Made by a program: the position numbers and the translations under genes
The notes under the pieces: generated by a model
Seen by the model: the letters and a program-made list of their open reading frames with translations, nothing else
What the model was told of the DNA's origin: nothing
Database searches by the model: none
Source: an uncultured Chloroflexia bacterium
GTDB lineage: Bacteria; Chloroflexota; Limnocylindria; QHBO01
DNA: 64,000 nt
Direction: 5' to 3'
NCBI GenBank assembly: GCA_963825525.1
Contig: CAWGTN010000001.1
Location: 4,725 to 68,724 of the forward strand
Shown here: piece by piece, positions 3,677 through 58,440 of the stretch
Layout: every line of letters begins with the position of its first letter
Numbering within the stretch: position 1 is the stretch's first letter

Positions 3677-4756
3677 ATGGGCGCACGGCGACCCACGCTG
3701 GAATCGCTTGCCACCGACCTTGGCGTGTCCCGCCAGACGGTGTGGAACGTGCTGAATCGACCTGCGGTCGTCGCCGAGCCCACTCGCCAGCGCATAGCGG
3801 CTGCCATCAGCGCCGCGGGCTACGTCCCTTCCCGCGCCGGCCGACAGCTGCGCACGCAGCGCTCGCACGCCATCGGCATTCGCCTGATGCCGACCTTCGA
3901 TGGCATCAACGGACACATCCTGGACACTTTTCTCCACGAGCTGGCCGAGCACGCCCATCGCTCCGACTATCGCCTCGCGCTGTTCGCCGCTGCCAACGAG
4001 ACGGACGAGATCGCCACCTATGCCCGGATGCGAGCGTCGAACGAGATCGACGGCGTAGTGCTCACCTCCACGACCATCGACGACGAGCGCATCACATGGC
4101 TCCTCGAGAACGATGTGCCGTTCGTGTCGTTCGGCCGGCCATGGCGCCGCGACGCCGATGCGACGACCGCACCGCATGACTGGGTGGACGTCGACGGAGC
4201 CGCGGGGACCGAGGCGGTCACGCGCCACCTCTTGGCGGACGGCCACGTCCGGATCGGCTACCTGTCGTGGCCGGCGCAGCCGGACGTCGGCGGCGACCGC
4301 CTCGCCGGCTGGGAGCGCGCGATGCGTCTCACCTCCGACGAGCTCGACCTCTCCACCCTCATGGCCGAGTGCTCGAATGACGTGACCGATGCGCGCCGCG
4401 CCGCCCGCGAGCTGCTCGACCGCGGGATCACCGCGTTCGTGTGCGCGTCCGATACGCTGGCGCTCGGCGCGCGAGCGGCCCTCGGTGCGCGGAGTCCAGC
4501 CGCACCACCTGTCCCCATCGTCGGCTTCGACGACACCCCTGTTGCCCGCGCACTGGGCCTCAGCTCAGTCGCTCAGCCGATCGTCCGCGCGGCACGAACC
4601 TCGGTTGCGCTGCTCGTGAGCCGGCTCGCCGGGGAGCGTCCGCCCGAGCATGTCCTGCTTCCCCCGTCACCGGTGTTCCGCGACTCCGAGATCGCCACAC
4701 CGTCGTTGTTCGAGAGCGTCGGAACCATCCAGGAGAAGGAGATCACCAACCCATGA
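3677..4756 (+). CDS. LacI-family transcriptional regulator
   Basis: N-terminal helix-turn-helix (PTLESLATDLGVSRQTVWNVLNRP) followed by a periplasmic-binding-protein-like sugar-binding domain. The open frame begins at a GTG at 3668; the start is chosen at the ATG at 3677. Confidence 0.85.
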   Translation: MGARRPTLESLATDLGVSRQTVWNVLNRPAVVAEPTRQRIAAAISAAGYVPSRAGRQLRTQRSHAIGIRLMPTFDGINGHILDTFLHELAEHAHRSDYRLALFAAANETDEIATYARMRASNEIDGVVLTSTTIDDERITWLLENDVPFVSFGRPWRRDADATTAPHDWVDVDGAAGTEAVTRHLLADGHVRIGYLSWPAQPDVGGDRLAGWERAMRLTSDELDLSTLMAECSNDVTDARRAARELLDRGITAFVCASDTLALGARAALGARSPAAPPVPIVGFDDTPVARALGLSSVAQPIVRAARTSVALLVSRLAGERPPEHVLLPPSPVFRDSEIATPSLFESVGTIQEKEITNP

Positions 4757-6040
4757 TTCACCGATTTCCGCGCGTGCCGGCCATCCTCGCCGCTTCCGCG
4801 CTCCTGCTCGCCGCCTGCGGCAGCGGATTCGAATCAGAGGCGCCGGGGTCAACGGCACCGGCGTCGGCGGATCCCGGATCATCGACCGATGCCAGCACGC
4901 CGGCCGAGGCCGGGGCCGATCTGACGATCCTCATCGGTTCATCGGGCGACGCCGAGACGAACCTGGTGAACGATCTTGTGGCCGAGTGGTCGGCCGAGTC
5001 CGGCGTGAATGCCGAGGTCGTCGTGGCATCGGACCTCAACCAGCAGCTCTCGCAGGGCTTCAGCTCGAACAGCCCGCCCGACCTGTTCTACCTCTCGACC
5101 GATCAGATGGCCGCTTACGCCGCCACCGATTCGCTCGAGCCATATGCGGAGTCGCTCTCGAACGCCGACGACTTCTACCCGAATCTGCGCGAGGCGTTCA
5201 CCTACGACGGACAGTTCATGTGCGCGCCGAAGGACTTCTCGACATTGGCGCTGATCATCAACTCGGATCATGTGGTCGGAGGCCGGACTGACCGACGACG
5301 ACATTCCGACGACGTGGGAGGAGCTCGCCTCGGTCGCCGAGCAGCTGACGACCGACGACCACGTGGGCCTGGCCTACGGGCCGGAGGTGCAGCGCATCGG
5401 CGTGTTCATGGCCGAGGCCGGTGGAGCGTTCATCGATGACGATGGCACGACGGCGGTCGTCGACTCGCCGGAGAATGCCGAGGCGCTCCAGTACGTCAAG
5501 GACCAGATGGCGGCCGGCACGTTCTCCTACTCGTCCGACCTCGGCGCGGGCTGGGGCGGCGAGGCGTTCGGCAACGGCCTGGCGGCCATGGTGATCGAGG
5601 GCAACTGGATCGCCGGCGCCATGACGAACGACTTCCCGGACGTCAACTATGTCGTGGCCGAGCTGCCGGAAGGACCGGGCGGCAAGGGCACGATCCAGTA
5701 CACGAACTGCTGGGGCATGGCGGCGCTGTCGGACAACATCCCCGGCGCGACATCGCTGGTCGAGCATCTGACCAGCACCGAGTCTCAGCTGGCCGCGGCC
5801 GAAGCCTTCGGCGTGATGCCGTCGGTGGCATCGGCGGCGGAGGAGTGGAAGGCGGCGTTCCCCGAGTTCGCGGCGTTCATCGATGGTGCCGAGTACGCCA
5901 TCAACCTTCCGGCCCAGCCGGGGACCGGCGATGTGATCAGTGACTTCAACTCGCAGCTCGAGACGCTGCCCGCCACGGAACCCGAGGCGATCCTCACCAG
6001 CGTCCAGCAGAGCCTTCAGGCCGCGCTGGACGATCAGTAG
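4753..6040 (+). pseudogene. Sugar ABC transporter substrate-binding lipoprotein (family 1), disrupted by a 1-nt frameshift near 5266-5272
   Basis: The N-terminal half (MIHRFPRVPAILAASALLLAACGS..., with a lipobox) is in frame 1. The C-terminal half (MWSEAGLTDDDIPTTWEEL...AGTFSY...) continues in frame 2. The junction ...INSD|MWSEAG... implies one extra C. Confidence 0.75.
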
Positions 6041-14374: not shown

Positions 14375-14450
14375 GGTCCCCGTAGCTCAGAGGACAGAGC
14401 AACCGCCTTCTAAGCGGTCGGTCGCAGGTTCGAATCCTGCCGGGGACGCC
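14375..14450 (+). tRNA. tRNA-Arg (anticodon TCT)
   Basis: The sequence GTCCCCG-TA-GCTC-AGAGGACA-GAGC-A-ACCGC-CTTCTAA-GCGGT-CGGTC-GCAGG-TTCGAAT-CCTGC-CGGGGAC-G-CCA folds as a cloverleaf with a 7-bp acceptor stem and a TCT anticodon. Confidence 0.9.
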
Positions 14451-27944: not shown

Positions 27945-29111
27945 ATGAACGACGAAACGAACGACCTCGAAGAGGCGCGACAGCTCCTTGACGGTGGCGA
28001 TCACGAGGCGGCCATCCGCCGAGCCGAGCCGCTCACCAGCCAGTCGAACGCGGACACGGCGGGTGATGCATGGCTCGTCATCGGCATGGCCCGCTACCGC
28101 CTGGACGACGAACCGGGCGCGATGAGCGCGTGGCGCTCGGCCGCTGATGCGGGCGGAGCAAGCGCGTGGCTCGGCTGGCGGAGCGTCGCCGAGCAGAACG
28201 TCCGCGACGGGGACCTGGAGGCGGCGATCACCGCGTACCGGGAGGCTGACCGGCGCGCCCCGGCCGCCGAGCGAGGACCCATCGCCAATCGGATCGCCTG
28301 GCTCCTCAAGGAGACCGGCCACGATTTCGCCGCACGCCGGCAGTTCAACAAGGCTCGCGGCGCCTATGCGACCTACGTCCCCCTGGTGACGTACGCCATC
28401 ATCGGGATCTGCGTTGCGCTGTTCGGCATCGACGCCTTCCTGACGCAGGGCGCCACGCTGGGCGGGGGGTTCCTCGGTGGTCAGCCCGGACCGCTGGGCC
28501 AGGACAATCTCATCAACGGCTTCTACGTCGCGAGCGGTGAGTGGTGGCGGATCATCACCAGCGCGTTCTTCCACCTCGGCCCGATCCACCTGGCGTTCAA
28601 CATGTACGTGCTCTACCTGTACGGCCAGCTGGCGGAGCGCATGTACGGGCGCATCGAATTCGCGGCGATCTACCTGCTGTGCGCCGCCGGCGGCAGCGTC
28701 CTCACCATCCTGGTCGAGCCGCAGCAGTTCGCGGCCGGGGCGTCCGGGGCCATCTTCGGCATCATCGGCCTGCTGTTCGTTGTCTCGCGTCGCCACCACG
28801 CGGTCCTCGGTCGTGAGGCTCGGTCGATGATGGCCGGCATCGGGACCTACCTGGTGTTCCTCCTGGTCTTCACCTTCCTGGTTCCGGGGATCAGCCTGAC
28901 CGGACATCTCGGCGGGCTCATCGTCGGGGCGATCCTGGGGTTCCTCCTGCCGCCCACGGGCGTCGAGACCCTGAGCGGCATGTGGCGCACTCCCACCGGT
29001 GCGCGCCTCTCGGGCGCCATGCCGCCGCCATTGCGTGCCGCGGTCTACGGCAGCGTGGCCGGCCTGCTCGTCCTGGGCTCGTACGTGGCGGCGGGCCTGA
29101 CCGTCGGTTGA
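27945..29111 (+). CDS. Rhomboid-family intramembrane serine protease with an N-terminal TPR-like cytoplasmic domain
   Basis: Rhomboid core with the GASGAIFG catalytic serine motif and a downstream GHLGG histidine, across six to seven transmembrane segments. It lies immediately upstream of trpD. Confidence 0.85.
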   Translation: MNDETNDLEEARQLLDGGDHEAAIRRAEPLTSQSNADTAGDAWLVIGMARYRLDDEPGAMSAWRSAADAGGASAWLGWRSVAEQNVRDGDLEAAITAYREADRRAPAAERGPIANRIAWLLKETGHDFAARRQFNKARGAYATYVPLVTYAIIGICVALFGIDAFLTQGATLGGGFLGGQPGPLGQDNLINGFYVASGEWWRIITSAFFHLGPIHLAFNMYVLYLYGQLAERMYGRIEFAAIYLLCAAGGSVLTILVEPQQFAAGASGAIFGIIGLLFVVSRRHHAVLGREARSMMAGIGTYLVFLLVFTFLVPGISLTGHLGGLIVGAILGFLLPPTGVETLSGMWRTPTGARLSGAMPPPLRAAVYGSVAGLLVLGSYVAAGLTVG

Positions 29112-29364
29112 CCGCCGGGACCGGCGCCCGTAGGATGCCGATCCCAACCGAACAGCGGCATCGACCGGGACGAGTACCCGATGACGACGGCCCACACGAG
29201 CGAGCCGGGATGGTGAGAGCCGGCATGGACCGCATCGAGGAATGGACCCGCGAGCCTCGCCACGAATCGCTCGACGCGAGCGACAAGCGGCGACGAACCG
29301 ACCCACCGTTAGCCGGGTCGACAAGTGCGGACCATTCGGTCCGAACGAGTGTGGCACCGCGGAA

Positions 29365-29394
29365 AACGCCTCCGTCTCTCGAGATGGAGGCGTT
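29365..29394 (+). promoter_or_regulatory. Hairpin (AACGCCTCC / GGAGGCGTT) in the trpD leader; possible terminator or attenuator
   Basis: A 9-bp stem followed by T-containing TTCGTGTTGCT. An alternative CGAACG/CGTTCG pairing overlaps it. No Trp-rich leader peptide was found. Confidence 0.3.
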
Positions 29395-29421
29395 CGTGTT
29401 GCTCAGCCAAGGATGGATCTC

Positions 29422-30468
29422 ATGTCGACAGCCAGCCCCGAGCTCAGCGAGCATCGCCCGGCCGTGAGCGCGGCGGTCGAGCTCGTCGCTGCGGGTGCCG
29501 TGCTGCCCGCGCCACTGGCCGAGGCGGCCATGGAAGAGCTCATGGCGGGCTCGGCTCCGCCCACCCAGGTCGCCGCGCTGCTCGCGATGCTCCGCGTGCG
29601 CGGCGAGACGCCGGAAGAGCTGGCGGCATTTGCACGTGTCATGCGCAGCCGAGCGGTCCGCGTCGATGCGCCCGATGGATCGGTTGACCTCTGCGGCACC
29701 GGTGCCGACGGTGCGGGCACGTTCAACATCTCGACCCTTGCAGCCTTCGTCGTGGCCGGCGCGGGCGTCCCGGTCGCCAAGCACGGCAACCGTGCCGTCA
29801 CGAGCCGATGCGGGTCAGCGGACTTCGTGGAGGCGCTGGGCATCCCGCTCGACCCGGGACCCGAGGCCACCGGCCGCCGCATTCGCCAGACGGGGTTCGG
29901 TTTCATCTTTGCGCCGGCGTACCACCCGGCGATGAAGCATGCCGCACCGATCCGACGAGAGCTGCCGATCCGCACCGCGTTCAACCTGCTCGGGCCGATC
30001 ATCTCGCCGGCCGGGGTCCGCCGCCAGCTCCTTGGTGTCGCCGATGAACGCCTGCTGCCGCTCATGGCCGGTGCGTTGGCCCGACTCGACACCGACCGCG
30101 CGCTCGTCGTCCACTCCGGCGACGGCCTGGACGAGCTGTCGCTGGCCGGGCCGAATCGAGCCATGCTGGTCGAGGGGCGGATGGTCGGCGAGCTCTCCAT
30201 CGATCCGGAGGAGCTCGGCCTGGCTCGCGCGCCGCGCAGCGCCTTTGCCGGTGGCGATGCGCAGCTCAACAGCGCCATCGCGCTCAGCGTGCTCGGTGGC
30301 GAGCCGGGGGCCGCACGCGACGTCGTGGTGCTCAACGCCGGGGCCGCCCTGTTCGTGTCGGGCGCGGCGACCGACGTCGCCGAGGGGATTGCCATGGCAG
30401 CCGATGCCGTGGACTCGGGCGCCGCCGCCAACGTGGTCGAGGCATCGGCCCGTTTCGAGGACCACTGA
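29422..30468 (+). CDS. trpD: Anthranilate phosphoribosyltransferase
   Basis: The GTGADG.GTFNIST signature ([25 protein letters not shown]) and KHGNRAVTS are present. An AAGGA ribosome-binding site lies 9 nt upstream. Confidence 0.9.
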
Positions 30469-30472
30469 GCCG

Positions 30473-33139
30473 ATGCCCTCGACGGTTCTGAATGACCTTC
30501 TCATCGCGGCACGGCGACGATCTCGGGCTGACGCGCGCGTCACCCCCCTTTCCGAGCTGCGCCGCGATATCGCCCGCCTGCCGGCTGCGCGACGATTCGA
30601 GGCAGCGCTGCGGTACGACGACCGCGTGGCGCTGGTCGCCGAGGCGAAGCGGGCCTCGCCGTCAAGCGGCGAGTTCGCGGTGGCCCGTGGATCGGCGGCG
30701 ATCGTGGAGCTCGCCCGGGGGTACGCGGCGGCCGGCGCCGCGGCGCTCTCGATCCTCACCGAGCCGACGCGGTTCGGTGGCAGCGACGACGACCTCGTGG
30801 CCGCCGCGCGCATCGGCCTGCCGGTGCTGCGCAAGGATTTCGTCGTCGATCGCTACGGCATCTGGCAGGCCCGCTGGCTCGGCGCGGACGCCGTGCTGCT
30901 CATCGTGCGGGCGCTTGGGCCGGACGAGCTCCGCTCGCTCATCGAGGAGGCCGGACGCGCCGGGGTCGACGCGCTGGTGGAGGTGCATGACGAGCGCGAG
31001 CTCGATACGGCGCTCGAGGCGGACGCGACGCTCATCGGCGTGAACGCGCGCAACCTCGAGACCCTGGCGGTGGACCTCGCCGCATCTCTGCCGCTGATCG
31101 CTCATGCGGCGGATGCGGGTGCGACGGTGGTGGCGGAGAGCGGGATGTCCTCGGCCGCGGACGTCGCCCAGGCCGGCGCCTGCGGGGCACATGCGGTGCT
31201 GATCGGGACCGCGCTGCTTCGTGAGCCGGACCCGGCGGCGGCCGCGGCAGGCATGGTGGCGGCGGCGCCGCAACGGAGACCGACGGCACGGCTGCCGTAT
31301 CCCTCGCGGCCGGCGGTCAAGGCCTGCGGGCTGCGGGACCGCGCGTCGGTGCAGGCGGCCATCGCGGCGGATGCCGATCTTGCCGGGTTCATCCTCGACC
31401 CCGCGTCCCCGCGCAGCGTCGACGTCGGGCGCGCGGCGGAGCTCATCGGCTCGATGCGCCGGCCGCGGCCCGTGCTCGTGTTCCGGGCTCCCACGCACCG
31501 GGAGGTCACGGACGCGGTTGAGGCGACGAAGGCGTCCGCCATTCAGCTCGCAGGGTTCGATGCACCGCCGGCGTGGCTCGGCGGGCTCGGCTCGACGGTC
31601 GACACCGTGATCGGCGTGCTCCACCAACCGGCCTCCGTGCGACAGGCCCTGCTGGCCGCCGAAGCATGGATCGCCGGCGGGGCGACCCACCTTCTGCTCG
31701 AGGGGGCCGCGCGCGGCGCCGGCGGGGGATCGGGCAGCGGCGCGCCGCGCGACATCGCGCGACGCCTCAACCGGATCGTGCCGGTCGGAATCGCGGGGGG
31801 CCTGACACCGGCCACTGTCGCCGGAGCGGTGCGGGACGCCCGCCCGGCCCTCGTCGACGCGGCGAGCGGACTGGAGCGCGATGGCACATCGGATCCCCGG
31901 CGCATCGGTGCCTTCGTGCGCAATGCTCGCCGGGAGGCCGCCGGCGGTGACCGGGTCGATGTCACGGGCCGCTTCGGCCGCTTCGGGGGGCGCTTCGTGC
32001 CGGAGACGCTCATTCCTCCGCTGGAAAACCTTGAGGCTGCCTGGTCGGCCGCCGGCAGAGACCGTGGCTACCGCGACGACCTCGAGCGCCTGTACCGCGA
32101 CTTCGTCGGCCGTCCGACGCCGATCTTTGCGATTCCTCCAGACGCCCTGCGGGGGCGGGGCGGGCGTGGGGCGACGCTGTGGCTCAAGCGAGAGGACCTC
32201 GCCCACACCGGCGCCCACAAGATCAACAACGCGGTGGGACAGACCCTGCTGGCCCAGCGCATGGGGAAGCCGCGCATCATCGCCGAGACCGGTGCCGGGC
32301 AGCATGGCGTTGCGACGGCCACCGCGTGCGCGCTGCTCGGCCTGAAGTGCGTCGTCTACATGGGCACCACCGACATCGAGCGCCAGGCGCCGAACGTACG
32401 ACGGATGGACCTGCTGGGCGCTGAGGTCCGGCCGGTGTCGACGGGCAACGGCACCCTGCGCGACGCTCTGAACGAGGCGCTGCGTGACTGGGTCGCCAAC
32501 GTGGAGGACACGTTCTACGTTCTCGGCTCGGCTGCCGGCCCGCATCCCTACCCGGAGATGGTGGCCACGCTGCAGTCGGTCATCGGTCGCGAGAGTCGCG
32601 CCCAGATGCTCGAGGCCATCGGTCGCATGCCGGACGCGGTGGTGGCGTGCGTCGGTGGCGGCAGCAACGCCATCGGGATCATGCGGCCGTTCATCGATAC
32701 CGCCACGCGGCTCATCGGGGTCGAGGCGGGAGGACGCGGTGACGGGCTGGGCGACAACGCGGCGTCGCTCGGCCTCGGAGCGCCGGGCGTGCTGCACGGT
32801 GCCTTCACCATGCTCACCCAGGACGCTGCCGGACAGGTGGTCGAGCCGCACTCGGTCAGCGCCGGACTCGACTATCCGGGCGTTGGGCCGCAGCTCGCCG
32901 CACTCGCCGAGTCCGGCCGCATGGAGGTGGCACGTGCCACGGACGCCGAGGCCCTCGCGGCCACGGGGTGGCTGGCTCGCACCTGCGGAATCATCCCGGC
33001 CCTCGAATCCGCGCACGCCCTGGCGGCGGCACTCCGCATGCTGCCGGAGCTCGACGGCGATGCCCACCTCCTCATCAACCTCTCCGGCCGGGGCGACAAG
33101 GACATGGGCATCCTGGACCACGAGCTTGCCACCACATGA
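30473..33139 (+). CDS. trpCFB: Apparent trifunctional fusion: indole-3-glycerol-phosphate synthase (TrpC), phosphoribosylanthranilate isomerase (TrpF) and tryptophan synthase beta (TrpB) in one uninterrupted frame
   Basis: The TrpC domain spans aa 1-270 ([37 protein letters not shown]). The TrpF domain begins at VKACGL and runs to [21 protein letters not shown]. TrpB begins at [15 protein letters not shown] and includes [13 protein letters not shown] and the PLP region. There is no stop between 30473 and 33139, and no in-frame start lies between the TrpF and TrpB segments. Confidence 0.8.
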
Positions 33140-33957
33140 CCGGCGCCGGCCGCATTCGCGATGCGTTCGATGCCGCAGCCGCCGATGGGCGGACGGCGCT
33201 CGTCGCCTACCTGCTGTCGGGCTTTCCCAGCGAGGCCGATGCGGTCGCGGCCGCCGAGGCAGCGCTCGATGCGGGCGCCGACATCATTGAAGTCGGCGTC
33301 CCGTTCAGCGACCCACTGGCCGATGGGCCGACCATCGCGGACGCCGGCCGCGTCTCGCTTGCGGCCGGTGGAGGCCTTCCGTCGGCACGGCGGCTGGTCG
33401 CCGCCCTGCGCGACCGAGGCCATCGGCAGCCGATCATGGTGATGACGTATCTCAACCCGCTGCTGGCCGCCGGAGAGCACGAGACCCTCGACGGCCTGCG
33501 CGAAGCCGGGGCTGACGGGCTCATCGTTCCGGACCTGCCCGCCGGCGCAATGCCGCGGATGGAGCGATTGGCAGCCGACCTGGGCCTCGCGATGTCGTTC
33601 CTCGTGGCGCCGAACACCTCGGAACGGCGGATCGAGGCGGCGATCGCGGCGTCGACCGGCTTCGTGTACGTCGTGCCGTTGCTCGGCGTGACCGGTGCGC
33701 GTGACACGGTCGCGGCGGGTGCTTCGGAGCTCATCGGGACCGTTCGCCGGCAGGCGGACGGACGCGTCCCGGTGGCCGCCGGCTTCGGCCTGAGCACGGC
33801 GGCCCAGGTCGCGGACCTTGCACCGGTCGCCGACGGACTCATCATCGGCTCGGCACTGGTTGCCGCCCTGCGGGACGGTGGCCCGGCGCGAATGGGGGAC
33901 CTGGTGCGGGAGCTTGCCGCCGCCACGTCACCCGGACCGGGTCCTGTGCGATCCTGA
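33136..33957 (+). CDS. trpA: Tryptophan synthase alpha subunit
   Basis: Its ATGA overlaps the trpB stop. TrpA motifs present: [15 protein letters not shown] and the [10 protein letters not shown] phosphate loop. Confidence 0.9.
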
Positions 33958-33961
33958 GCCC

Positions 33962-34714
33962 ATGTGCTTCGACCATGACGCTCGACCACCACTCCCACCG
34001 ATCCGCGGCTCGGCACTCGATGCCCGCGAGCTGACCCTCCACAGCCGGGACGGAACGGCCGTGAGCGCCTACGCCGCGCTCGCCGAGCCGTCTGCCGATC
34101 TCGGAATAGTCATCGTGCCGGACGTGCGCGGGCTGCACCCGTACTACGAGGAGCTGGCCCTTCGCTTTGCCGAGGCCGGGATCCACGCGATCGCCATCGA
34201 CCTCTACGCGCGCACGGCCGGCGACGTCCCGCGCGGCCCGGAGTTCGTCCACGAGCCGCATGTCACGCGGCTGGATCCGGCGCAGGTCAACGATGACGTC
34301 GCGGCGGCGTCCGCCTGGCTCGGCGGTCACGCCACCTCGATCTTCAGCATCGGCTTCTGCCTTGGTGGCCGGATCAGCCTGGTCCAGGCCAGCACCGGCC
34401 TGGGGCTGACGGGCGTCATCGGCCTGTATCCGTGGCCGGTCGGACCGCACCGCTCGGGAATTCCGGCGCCGGCCGACCTTGCGCCGGAGTTCGCGTGCCC
34501 GGTGCTGGCCATCTACGGTGGGGCGGACACGGCCATCCCGCAGGAACAGCGAGCCGCATTCGACGAGGCGCTCGACCGCGCGGGCGTGACCCATCGAAGC
34601 GTGACGTACGAAGGTGCGCCGCACTCGTTCTTCGACCGCCGCGCGGAGGAGCACGCCGATGCCAACGCCGCCGCCTGGGGCGAGATCCTCCAGTTCGTGG
34701 GAGCCGGCAGCTAG
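33962..34714 (+). CDS. Dienelactone-hydrolase-family alpha/beta hydrolase
   Basis: DLH-fold nucleophile motif GFCLGG, plus a C-terminal histidine region (YEGAPHSF). Confidence 0.75.
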   Translation: MCFDHDARPPLPPIRGSALDARELTLHSRDGTAVSAYAALAEPSADLGIVIVPDVRGLHPYYEELALRFAEAGIHAIAIDLYARTAGDVPRGPEFVHEPHVTRLDPAQVNDDVAAASAWLGGHATSIFSIGFCLGGRISLVQASTGLGLTGVIGLYPWPVGPHRSGIPAPADLAPEFACPVLAIYGGADTAIPQEQRAAFDEALDRAGVTHRSVTYEGAPHSFFDRRAEEHADANAAAWGEILQFVGAGS

Positions 34715-57488: not shown

Positions 57489-58440
57489 TCAGCGGGCGCG
57501 GGCGGCCTCGCGCTCGAGGATCTGCGCCCGCTTGGCCTCGAACCGCGACGCCTGGGCGTCGAGGTTGGTGAGGAACGCGCGAAGCTCGGTGCGGCGCCGC
57601 TCGGCCGACGGGTCAATGCCCTCGAGTTCGAAGACGCCCCAATGCGCCAGGAGCGGCCAGACGACGTCGTCGTGATGGACCCGCAGGTCGTAGATACCGG
57701 CCTTCGCCATCTGGGCGGCCTTGCGGGTGAAGTTCACCATCCCTGATCCGGGCATCTGGAAGTCCATGATCTCGTCCGCGATCGCATGCACGGCGGCGGA
57801 CGGGATCGATCTTCATGGCCTCCGACAGCATGTCCCGATAGAAGACCATGTGAAGGTTTTCGTCGGATGCGATGCGGGTCATGATCCTGTCCGCCACCGG
57901 GTCGGACGAGTAGCGCCCCGTGTTGCGGTGGCTGATCCGCGTCGCCAGCTCCTGGAACGCCACGTAGGCCAGGCCGCGCAGGACGTTGCCACCATCATCG
58001 TGGTCATAGGCGGTCTGCAGCTGGTTCATGCGTCCGCGCTCCAGCGCAATCGGATCGATGTTGCGGGTCACCACGAGGTAGTCGCGCAGCACGATGGCAT
58101 GGCGCCCTTCCTCGGCGGTCCATCGGTTCACCCAGTTGATCCACGGGCCGTCGCCGCGGCCGAACATTCGGTGGATCTCGCGGTGATAGCTCGGCAGGTT
58201 GTCCTCGGTCAGGAGGTTGACCTCGAACGCGATCTGCGCCACGCCGCTGATGCGGGGCTGGTCCGGCGTCCAGGGATCCTTGTCGAAATCACGGCCCATC
58301 GAATACGGGATGTAGTCGTGTGGGAACCACTCCTTGGCCATGCCGAGGTGGCGGTTCAGCAGCATCTCGGCCGCGGGCTCGAGCTCGGTCAGGAGGTCGC
58401 GGGGAGGCGTGAAGGAGGGGGTCTCGATCTGGGTCGTCAT
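57489..58440 (-). pseudogene. Soluble acyl-ACP desaturase (DesA1/DesA2-type di-iron enzyme), disrupted by a 1-nt frameshift near 57790-57800
   Basis: Di-iron motifs EEGRHAIVLRDYL and DENLHMVFYRD are in one frame up to ...MKIDP. The normal continuation (AVHAIADEIMDFQMPGSG...) lies in another frame. Confidence 0.75.

What the first reader, a model, noticed from the sequence alone, without database searches (positions are those of the whole stretch)
30473..33139. trpC, trpF and trpB read as one continuous 888-codon frame, implying a trifunctional IGPS-PRAI-TrpB-beta fusion
TrpC-TrpF fusions are classic, for example in E. coli. Here the TrpB domain follows TrpF with only a roughly 10-aa linker ([21 protein letters not shown]) and no in-frame start. 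That would place three consecutive tryptophan-pathway activities, the last being the PLP-dependent beta reaction, on one polypeptide, while trpA remains separate and translationally coupled through an ATGA overlap. The other frameshifts in this window insert stops; they do not remove them. So this is unlikely to be an assembly artefact.
Basis: partly seen in the sequence, partly recalled or inferred. Interest (0 to 1): 0.7.

Follow-up and report, generated by a model that had tools for sequence, protein, structure and literature searches.

The report
Conserved TrpC-TrpF-TrpB fusion gene
Three tryptophan-synthesis enzymes (TrpC, TrpF, TrpB) really are encoded as one 888-residue protein here; the fusion is conserved across a whole group of uncultured Chloroflexota (Limnocylindria), so it is a real but modest variation on well-known trp gene fusions.

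Summary
Window 30473..33139 (+) is one stop-free frame of 888 codons. It carries complete IGPS (aa 1-265), PRAI (aa 280-489) and TrpB1 (aa 499-888) domains. trpD lies 4 nt upstream and trpA overlaps the stop codon (ATGA).

It is not an assembly artefact. More than 120 protein clusters at 65-91% identity, from independent assemblies named Candidatus Limnocylindria or Chloroflexota, have the same length of about 888 aa and the same three domains. Both linkers keep their length, and linker 2 is under purifying selection (pN/pS about 0.3-0.4). Three relatives' loci each show trpD-trpCFB-trpA. Catalytic residues are invariant, except that the PRAI general acid is Glu instead of Asp.

The three fused activities are therefore not consecutive; the separate TrpA supplies the step between IGPS and TrpB.

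Novelty is limited. All three pairwise fusions have curated NCBIfam models. Other C-F-B and D-C-F-B fusions, and larger eukaryotic ones, are already in the databases. I found no paper describing the bacterial C-F-B fusion.

In passing: a Trp-specific T-box leader with a terminator-like hairpin precedes trpD.

The parts
29108..29136 (+). Sigma-70-like promoter (TTGACC-17-TAGGAT) upstream of the leader
   Evidence: this is the only promoter-like site in 29000-34200, against 0.1 expected from shuffles. Both hexamers are conserved in L081 and L083.
29152..29382 (+). T-box leader RNA with a UGG (Trp) specifier
   Evidence: RF00230 matches over the full model (1-219) with 59.6 bits, below the gathering score of 93, and E=1.3e-12 for the 451-nt search. 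The specifier loop reads GAA-UGG-A and the T-box motif reads AGUGUGGCACCGCGG; the intergenic alignment that contains it is 84% identical across window, L081 and L083.
29366..29393 (+). Terminator-like hairpin (12-bp GC-rich stem) followed by UUCGUGUUG, at the 3' end of the T-box
   Evidence: One search finds a terminator-like site at 29373-29392. (RNAfold) gives a 12-bp stem. The sequence is invariant in L081 and L083.
29413..30468 (+). trpD (anthranilate phosphoribosyltransferase). The probable start is ATG 29413 or 29422; the mechanical ORF start at 29242 lies inside the T-box leader.
   Evidence: Glycos_trans_3N plus Glycos_transf_3, 278 bits. The relatives' trpD is 345-356 aa.
30473..33139 (+). 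trpCFB fusion gene, 888 codons plus TGA
30473..31267 (+). IGPS (TrpC) domain, aa 1-265
   Evidence: PF00218 at 224 bits. E57, K59, K121, E170, N191, R193, E222 and S223 are invariant in 107 sequences.
31268..31309 (+). Linker 1, aa 266-279. The sequence varies but the length is nearly constant.
   Evidence: alignment. pN/pS is 0.47-0.90, with one 3-nt indel in L082. Block-mean pLDDT is about 89-93.
31310..31939 (+). PRAI (TrpF) domain, aa 280-489
   Evidence: PF00697 at 68 bits against a cutoff of 22.7. It aligns end to end with solved PRAIs 5lhf, 4wui and 1lbm. C285 is invariant. E410 replaces the catalytic Asp.
31940..31966 (+). Linker 2, aa 490-498 (family consensus PTGADRVDx)
   Evidence: Conserved in 107 sequences. 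pN/pS is 0.28-0.43. It contains no in-frame start codon.
31967..33136 (+). TrpB1-type tryptophan synthase beta domain, aa 499-888
   Evidence: TIGR00263 at 537 bits against a cutoff of 392. It is 54-62% identical to solved TrpB structures, with target-normalised TM-score about 0.89. H582, K583, E605, G728-N732 (G730 in at least 90%) and D800 are invariant, and S871 is in at least 90% of sequences.
33136..33957 (+). trpA (tryptophan synthase alpha), a separate gene whose ATG overlaps the trpCFB stop codon (ATGA)
   Evidence: PF00290, 227 bits. The same overlap of coordinates is seen in L081, L082, L083 and L086.

Best explanation
This is a genuine trpC-trpF-trpB gene fusion fixed in a lineage, in a high-GC member of Candidatus Limnocylindria (Chloroflexota). 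It arose by loss of the two intergenic stop/start junctions in an ancestral trpC-trpF-trpB-trpA gene run.

Shown by the analysis:
- The gene encodes one 888-aa polypeptide with three complete domains.
- The catalytic residues are conserved.
- It sits in a trpD-trpCFB-trpA operon behind a Trp T-box leader.

Inferred:
- The TrpB1 domain dimerises and binds the separately encoded, translationally coupled TrpA. This would give an alpha2-beta2 tryptophan synthase core with an IGPS-PRAI module tethered to the N-terminus of each beta subunit, so that one particle holds the last four activities of the pathway (PRAI, IGPS, TrpA, TrpB).
- The main benefit is probably fixed 1:1:1 stoichiometry, co-folding and stability, and co-localisation, rather than proven channelling. 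From my own knowledge, channelling was not found in the E. coli TrpC-TrpF fusion.
For: -: uninterrupted frame.
- three domains above the Pfam and TIGR cutoffs.
- the 120 best-scoring clusters, at 65-91% identity, all carry IGPS+PRAI+PALP. Most are 882-904 aa and come from NCBI, ENA, JGI and Logan assemblies. The named ones are Ca. Limnocylindria, Limnocylindrales or Chloroflexota.
- junction lengths are conserved, linker 2 is conserved in sequence, and catalytic residues are invariant.
- pN/pS below 1 across both linkers.
- the same trpD-trpCFB-trpA arrangement on contigs of 0.42-0.98 Mb, and trpE-trpG-trpD-trpCFB-trpA in L082.
- other Chloroflexota classes (Dehalococcoidia, Chloroflexia, Anaerolineae, Tepidiformaceae) have the same gene order as separate ORFs. 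This fits fusion in situ.
- no usable internal start codon before TrpB, and no second trpC, trpF or trpB in the window.
- AlphaFold2 gives mean pLDDT 88.6 and pTM 0.88, with both linkers modelled at about 87-93.
- no promoter-like or terminator-like site inside the gene.
- two other assemblies of nearly the same gene carry frameshifts elsewhere but read through the junctions.
Against: - There is no protein-level evidence: no proteomics and no enzyme assays.
- The PRAI domain departs from consensus at two normally conserved positions. E410 replaces the general-acid Asp, which is D in 46 of 48 TrpFs from other phyla. A360 replaces the His of the QLHG motif, which is H in 43 of 48. PRAI activity is therefore inferred, not certain.
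- The quaternary structure with TrpA and any channelling are inference.
- pTM from a single-chain model does not show the physiological assembly.
- Only three relatives were compared at DNA level, and the linkers are short, so the pN/pS values are noisy.
Confidence: 0.9

Rival explanations
1. The PRAI domain is a degenerate, catalytically weak or inactive spacer. The protein would then be effectively bifunctional (IGPS + TrpB), like the curated TrpC/TrpB fusions, with PRA isomerisation supplied elsewhere, for example by a PriA-like HisA.
For:: the PRAI score is only 68 bits, against 110-122 bits in the other fusions P0122 and P0157. E410 replaces the catalytic Asp and A360 replaces the conserved His; other C-F-B and F-B fusions keep Asp at that position.
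Against: The general base C285, the phosphate-binding motifs GGGSG and AGGL, and the DAASG-LE motif are conserved. pN/pS for the domain is 0.39-0.55, similar to TrpC. Glu keeps the carboxylate. The domain aligns end to end with solved PRAIs. No second trpF is present in the window, although the rest of the genome was not seen.
Confidence: 0.08
2. One ORF but several proteins. Internal translation initiation or proteolytic cleavage in the linkers would release free TrpB (and TrpC and TrpF), so the fusion would be only genetic.
For: An in-frame ATG-GTG pair lies at aa 261-262, just before the PRAI domain. Linker 1 varies in sequence.
Against: No in-frame start codon with a Shine-Dalgarno sequence lies before TrpB. 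Met261 is not conserved. Linker 2 is conserved and modelled with high confidence. No internal promoter-like site was found.
Confidence: 0.03
3. An assembly or sequencing artefact (indels removing stop codons) created a false fusion in this window.
For: Other assemblies of nearly the same gene do carry indel frameshifts: P0279 (980 aa) and P0280 (444 aa). trpE is split in L082.
Against: More than 120 independent clusters share the same length and architecture. The junction alignments are in frame, with a codon-sized indel. P0279 reads through both junctions and P0280 through junction 1.
Confidence: 0.01

Closest known systems
Bifunctional TrpC-TrpF (IGPS-PRAI) of E. coli and other bacteria (NCBIfam NF006945/PRK09427; PDB 1PII, 7ETX)
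   Same: IGPS is N-terminal to PRAI on one chain. The match spans aa 3-486 of the window protein, and 1pii and 7etx are hit.
   Different: The score of 222.9 is below the family cutoff of 380. Here a TrpB domain follows, and the linker is longer (about 14 aa). The fusion probably arose independently, since sister Chloroflexota classes have separate genes.
Bifunctional TrpF-TrpB (NCBIfam NF010376/PRK13803), described as rare in bacteria and archaea (PMC11237513)
   Same: PRAI is fused to the N-terminus of TrpB. It is the best NCBIfam hit, covering aa 280-882 with 600.9 bits. Examples among the fetched loci are L024 (Chlamydiae) and L030 (Bacteriovoracaceae).
   Different: The score is below the cutoff of 819. 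The window protein has an extra N-terminal IGPS, and its linker does not align with those of P0134 and P0137.
Bifunctional TrpC-TrpB (NCBIfam NF010375/PRK13802)
   Same: IGPS and TrpB are on one chain (563.5 bits). P0124 and P0128 have this architecture.
   Different: The score is far below the cutoff of 1386. Those proteins lack the PRAI domain between the two.
Other database proteins with C, F and B on one chain: P0122 (818 aa), P0123 (967 aa), P0138 (948 aa), P0157 (TrpD-C-F-B, 1220 aa, marine), Paulinella P0133 (A-F-B-D-C) and P0135 (E-G-A-F-B-D-C). Also the Euglena five-domain enzyme (mentioned in PMC2395257).
   Same: Multi-enzyme tryptophan-pathway polypeptides that include IGPS, PRAI and TrpB. 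P0122 also sits between trpD and trpA.
   Different: They are only 34-49% identical. Their linkers differ in length and do not align, and they keep the catalytic Asp in PRAI. They are probably independent fusion events.

Membership tests
IGPS / TrpC (Pfam PF00218) | Profile score above the gathering cutoff over the full domain | tested here: met
   224.4 bits against 27, covering profile positions 13-251 of 254.
IGPS / TrpC | Catalytic and substrate-binding residues. By my own knowledge of S. solfataricus IGPS these are E51, K53, K110, E159, N180, R182, E210 and S211. | tested here: met
   E57, K59, K121, E170, N191, R193, E222 and S223 are invariant in 107 sequences. The residue mapping was done by motif (EAKRxSPS, LRKDF, VEVH, GVNxRxL, AESG).
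PRAI / TrpF (Pfam PF00697) | Profile score above the cutoff over the full domain | tested here: met
   68.3 bits against 22.7, covering profile positions 1-192 of 193; end-to-end alignments to solved PRAIs.
PRAI / TrpF | General base Cys (Cys7 in T. maritima) and general acid Asp (Asp126) | tested here: inconclusive
   C285 is invariant. The acid position is Glu (E410) in at least 90% of the family, whereas it is D in 46 of 48 TrpFs from other phyla. The carboxylate is kept, but activity was not tested.
TrpB1, tryptophan synthase beta (NCBIfam TIGR00263) | Equivalog score above the cutoff, and a better score than the TrpB2-like model | tested here: met
   537.5 bits against 392.45. TIGR01415 (the TrpB-like model) scores only 157.6 against 518.85.
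TrpB1 | PLP lysine and catalytic residues (Salmonella numbering K87, E109, the GGGSN loop, D305, S377) | tested here: met
   K583, E605, G728-N732 (G730 in at least 90%) and D800 are invariant, and S871 is in at least 90% of sequences.
TrpB1 | Forms an alpha2-beta2 complex with TrpA | not testable with these tools
   The only support is an adjacent, translationally coupled trpA.
NCBIfam NF010376 bifunctional TrpF/TrpB | Whole-protein score at or above 819 | tested here: not met
   600.9 bits. The architecture is the same over aa 280-882, but the protein is not a member of that equivalog family.
NCBIfam NF006945 bifunctional TrpC/TrpF | Whole-protein score at or above 380 | tested here: not met
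   222.9 bits.
NCBIfam NF010375 bifunctional TrpC/TrpB | Whole-protein score at or above 1386 | tested here: not met
   563.5 bits.
T-box leader (Rfam RF00230), for the upstream element | Score at or above the gathering score of 93 | tested here: not met
   59.6 bits, although the match covers the full model with E=1.3e-12.
T-box leader (Rfam RF00230), for the upstream element | Specifier codon in the specifier loop, the conserved T-box sequence, and a downstream terminator | tested here: met
   The GAA-UGG-A specifier and the GUGGCACCGCG T-box motif are present. A terminator-like hairpin follows. The region is conserved in L081 and L083.

The most novel reading that the evidence does not exclude
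The fusion is more than a stoichiometry device. With TrpA bound, the TrpC-TrpF-TrpB chain would form a rigid (alpha-beta-F-C)2 particle, a tryptophan-synthesising metabolon, in which the labile intermediates CdRP and IGP pass between closely placed active sites. That would extend the classic indole tunnel of tryptophan synthase to four consecutive steps. The lineage-specific changes would be adaptations to this assembly: Glu for Asp in PRAI, and Arg for the Lys167-equivalent residue of TrpB that mediates alpha-beta communication. The high single-chain pTM (0.88) and the conserved, confidently modelled linker 2 are compatible with a fixed domain arrangement.
Probability: 0.12. Interest if true: 0.6.

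Novelty: new variant of a known kind. Interest (0 to 1): 0.3.

Why it matters
Tryptophan-pathway fusions are textbook material for how operons turn into multi-enzyme proteins, and for whether fusion brings substrate channelling.

This gene is a naturally fixed bacterial fusion of IGPS, PRAI and TrpB that still recruits a separate TrpA. It offers a tractable system to test three things:
- whether tethering upstream enzymes to the tryptophan synthase core changes kinetics, allostery or stability;
- whether a PRAI that uses Glu as its general acid is fully active;
- how such a fusion is built in steps from a C-F-B-A gene run.

It also matters for annotation. These proteins are currently named only 'tryptophan synthase subunit beta'. 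Pathway reconstructions that rely on names could therefore score trpC and trpF as missing in Limnocylindria MAGs and wrongly predict tryptophan auxotrophy.

Tried and rejected
- Genome scan. It returned no Limnocylindria genome. I used it instead as a cross-phylum control: none of 80 loci has C, F and B in one ORF.
- Exact look-up of the window protein's contig. It returned nothing, although the exact protein is in the collection as P0278, from NCBI and ENA, on a 290-kb contig.
- Foldseek against PDB. It matched only TrpB chains, and no solved structure covers more than one domain plus B. It gave no information on domain arrangement, and neither PAE nor coordinates were available.
- Literature (and papers read). 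I found no description of a bacterial TrpC-TrpF-TrpB fusion. The Xie et al. 2003 review of trp operon evolution is not held, so prior mention there cannot be excluded.
- Possible four-domain C-F-B-A fusions P0110 and P0107. I rejected these: their tails go out of register before or at the end of the TrpB domain and look like frameshift read-through into trpA.
- An ancestral trpB start at the out-of-frame GTG and ATG after the GGGAGG in linker 2 (read). I rejected this: that frame does not encode TrpB-like sequence.
- A Trp-rich leader peptide upstream of trpD. I rejected this in favour of a T-box RNA.
Full report
OBSERVATION

Window 30473..33139 (+) translates to 888 residues with a single terminal TGA. 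The ATG at 30473 lies 4 nt after the trpD stop codon. The trpA ATG at 33136 overlaps the stop codon as ATGA.

Pfam finds IGPS (aa 19-258, 224 bits), PRAI (aa 282-483, 68 bits) and PALP (aa 547-872, 145 bits). NCBIfam TIGR00263 (trpB) matches aa 499-880 with 537 bits against a cutoff of 392, and the TrpB2-like model scores far lower.

The domain models and the AlphaFold secondary structure place linker 1 at about aa 266-279 and linker 2 at about aa 490-498. Linker 2 contains no in-frame ATG, GTG or TTG, and no plausible internal start codon precedes TrpB. The window holds no second copy of any of the three domains.

IS IT REAL?

A search of about 5.8 billion proteins returned 276 hits. All 120 listed are at 65-91% identity and carry IGPS+PRAI+PALP. 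Most are 882-904 aa; a few are shorter partial sequences, and two longer ones are discussed below. They come from independent NCBI, ENA, JGI and Logan assemblies. Those with names are 'MAG: tryptophan synthase subunit beta' from Candidatus Limnocylindria, Limnocylindrales or Chloroflexota (taxonomy).

In alignments of 30 and 107 members, both junctions keep their length. Linker 2 has the consensus [22 protein letters not shown] and is well conserved. Linker 1 varies in sequence but not in length.

Codon alignments with three relatives give pN/pS of 0.28-0.43 for linker 2 and 0.47-0.90 for linker 1, against 0.14-0.55 for the domains. The only indel is one codon long.

Relatives on contigs of 0.42-0.98 Mb show the same local gene order as the window: rhomboid, trpD, trpCFB, trpA, DLH, FTR1, acyl-CoA dehydrogenase (L081 and L083). 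A more distant member has trpE-trpG-trpD-trpCFB-trpA (L082).

The exact window protein is in the collection as P0278. Two near-identical versions from other assemblies (P0279, 980 aa; P0280, 444 aa) are frameshifted elsewhere in the gene, yet P0279 reads through both junctions and P0280 through junction 1. An assembly artefact is effectively excluded.

ORIGIN

Among 80 loci from other phyla and other Chloroflexota classes, the order trpC-trpF-trpB is common, but the genes are separate ORFs. One locus has C fused to F (Ktedonobacteraceae L001). Two have F fused to B (L024, L030). None has all three fused. The fusion therefore most likely arose in situ, by loss of the two gene boundaries in an ancestor of this Limnocylindria group.

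At 50% clustering the whole family collapses to one representative (P0067). A few other representatives also carry C, F and B on one chain:
- P0122 (818 aa), which lies between trpD and trpA in L086;
- P0123 (967 aa);
- P0138 (948 aa);
- P0157, a marine TrpD-C-F-B protein of 1220 aa;
- two eukaryotic 5- and 7-domain proteins.

Their linkers differ in length and do not align with the window's, which suggests independent fusion events.

FUNCTION

The IGPS residues E57, K59, K121, E170, N191, R193, E222 and S223 are invariant. So are the TrpB residues H582, K583 (the PLP lysine), E605, the GGGSN loop (G728-N732, G730 in at least 90%) and D800; S871 is in at least 90% of sequences. I mapped these to the characterised enzymes by motif, from my own knowledge.

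The PRAI domain aligns end to end with solved PRAIs and keeps the general-base Cys (C285). However, the general-acid Asp is Glu (E410) in at least 90% of the family, while it is D in 46 of 48 TrpFs from other phyla. The His of the QLHG motif is Ala here, while it is H in 43 of 48. The other C-F-B fusions keep Asp. I consider the domain active, because the carboxylate is kept, the phosphate-binding motifs are intact and pN/pS is about 0.4-0.55. This remains the weakest link in the functional argument.

AlphaFold2 with the 107-sequence alignment gives mean pLDDT 88.6 and pTM 0.88, with both linkers at about 87-93. This is compatible with a defined domain arrangement. The only low-confidence stretch is aa 755-802, inside TrpB. 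Foldseek against the PDB matches only TrpB chains, with target-normalised TM-score about 0.89.

MECHANISM (INFERRED)

The TrpB1 domain should dimerise and bind the translationally coupled TrpA. That would place IGPS-PRAI modules on the N-termini of the beta subunits. Fungal TrpA-TrpB fusions and bacterial TrpF-TrpB and TrpC-TrpB fusions show that N-terminal extensions of TrpB are tolerated (NCBIfam models; 7a20).

The pathway order is PRAI, IGPS, TrpA, TrpB. The complex with TrpA would hold four consecutive steps. The likely benefit is fixed stoichiometry, stability and co-localisation. Channelling is unproven.

REGULATION (NOTICED IN PASSING)

The 300-nt region before trpD is 84% identical among the window, L081 and L083. 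It contains three elements:
- a sigma-70-like promoter at 29108-29136;
- a full-length T-box match at 29152-29382, with 59.6 bits (below the gathering score of 93) and E=1.3e-12, a GAA-UGG-A (Trp) specifier and the T-box motif;
- a 12-bp terminator-like hairpin at 29366-29393.

No promoter-like or terminator-like site lies inside trpCFB. The mechanical trpD ORF start at 29242 falls inside this leader, so the true start is probably 29413 or 29422.

COMPARISON WITH WHAT IS KNOWN, AND NOVELTY

All pairwise fusions have curated NCBIfam models: TrpC/TrpF (NF006945), TrpF/TrpB (NF010376) and TrpC/TrpB (NF010375). The window protein matches each over the relevant part but scores below every cutoff. 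It shares their architecture without being a member of those families, and no curated model covers the triple fusion.

In the literature, TrpF-TrpB is called rare (PMC11237513) and Euglena has a five-domain enzyme (PMC2395257). I found no paper describing a bacterial C-F-B fusion, but the main review on trp fusions is not held.

VERDICT

This is a real, conserved fusion and a new variant of a well-known kind. Interest is modest at 0.3. It has practical value for annotation: these genes are labelled only as trpB, which hides trpC and trpF. It also offers a natural test case for how fusions behave in the tryptophan synthase system.

Noticed in passing
window 29108-29393 (+): The region upstream of trpD holds a promoter-like site, a full-length T-box leader (RF00230, 59.6 bits, below the gathering score, E=1.3e-12) with a UGG (Trp) specifier, and a terminator-like hairpin. 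The intergenic region containing them is 84% identical in L081 and L083. The 38-aa 'gene' called in L083 at 4722-4838, and the first 57 codons of the mechanical trpD ORF, overlap this RNA.
   Followed up: partly
window 31700-31702 (E410) and 31550-31552 (A360): The PRAI domain of the whole Limnocylindria family has Glu where the catalytic general-acid Asp normally sits (D in 46 of 48 TrpFs from other phyla). It also has Ala in place of the His of the QLHG motif (H in 43 of 48). One of the two other TrpFs with Glu is the Chlamydiae TrpF-TrpB fusion L024.
   Followed up: partly
window 32459-32461 (R663): The TrpB residue equivalent to Salmonella beta-Lys167 is an invariant Arg in this family. 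From my own knowledge, Lys167 takes part in alpha-beta communication. Most other fusions and TrpBs have Lys at this position.
   Followed up: no
P0279 (980 aa) and P0280 (444 aa), same 90% cluster as the window protein: Near-identical copies of this gene from other assemblies (contigs of 159 kb and 2.3 Mb) are frameshifted, after aa ~842 and aa ~408 respectively. These look like indel errors in those assemblies rather than biology. P0110 and P0107 similarly run on into trpA sequence after going out of register.
   Followed up: partly
L084/L085 5001-8663 (Tara Oceans marine contigs): A 1220-aa TrpD-TrpC-TrpF-TrpB four-domain protein (P0157, 9 cluster members) lies next to a divergently transcribed TrpE-TrpG fusion, with no trpA called alongside. 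The source organism is unknown, and the neighbours include SNF2/DEAD helicase, peptidase M13 and NFACT-R genes.
   Followed up: no
L086 591-3047 (JGI 3300037308): A second bacterial C-F-B fusion lineage (P0122, 818 aa, 49% identical) has much shorter linkers and Asp retained in PRAI. It also lies between trpD and trpA. It is probably an independent fusion.
   Followed up: partly
L082 2964-4386: In a more distant family member the operon is complete (trpE-trpG-trpD-trpCFB-trpA), but trpE is called as two pieces (364 and 121 aa), probably because of a frameshift. In the window's closer relatives trpE and trpG are not adjacent; a rhomboid gene precedes the T-box and trpD.
   Followed up: no
window 58043-58110 (+) and 14376-14448 (+): There is an Rfam hit above the gathering score to the ASdes sRNA family (RF01781, 56.5 bits), which was described in Mycobacterium. 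That is unexpected in a Chloroflexota window and may reflect a conserved desaturase-gene sequence. There is also one tRNA.
   Followed up: no
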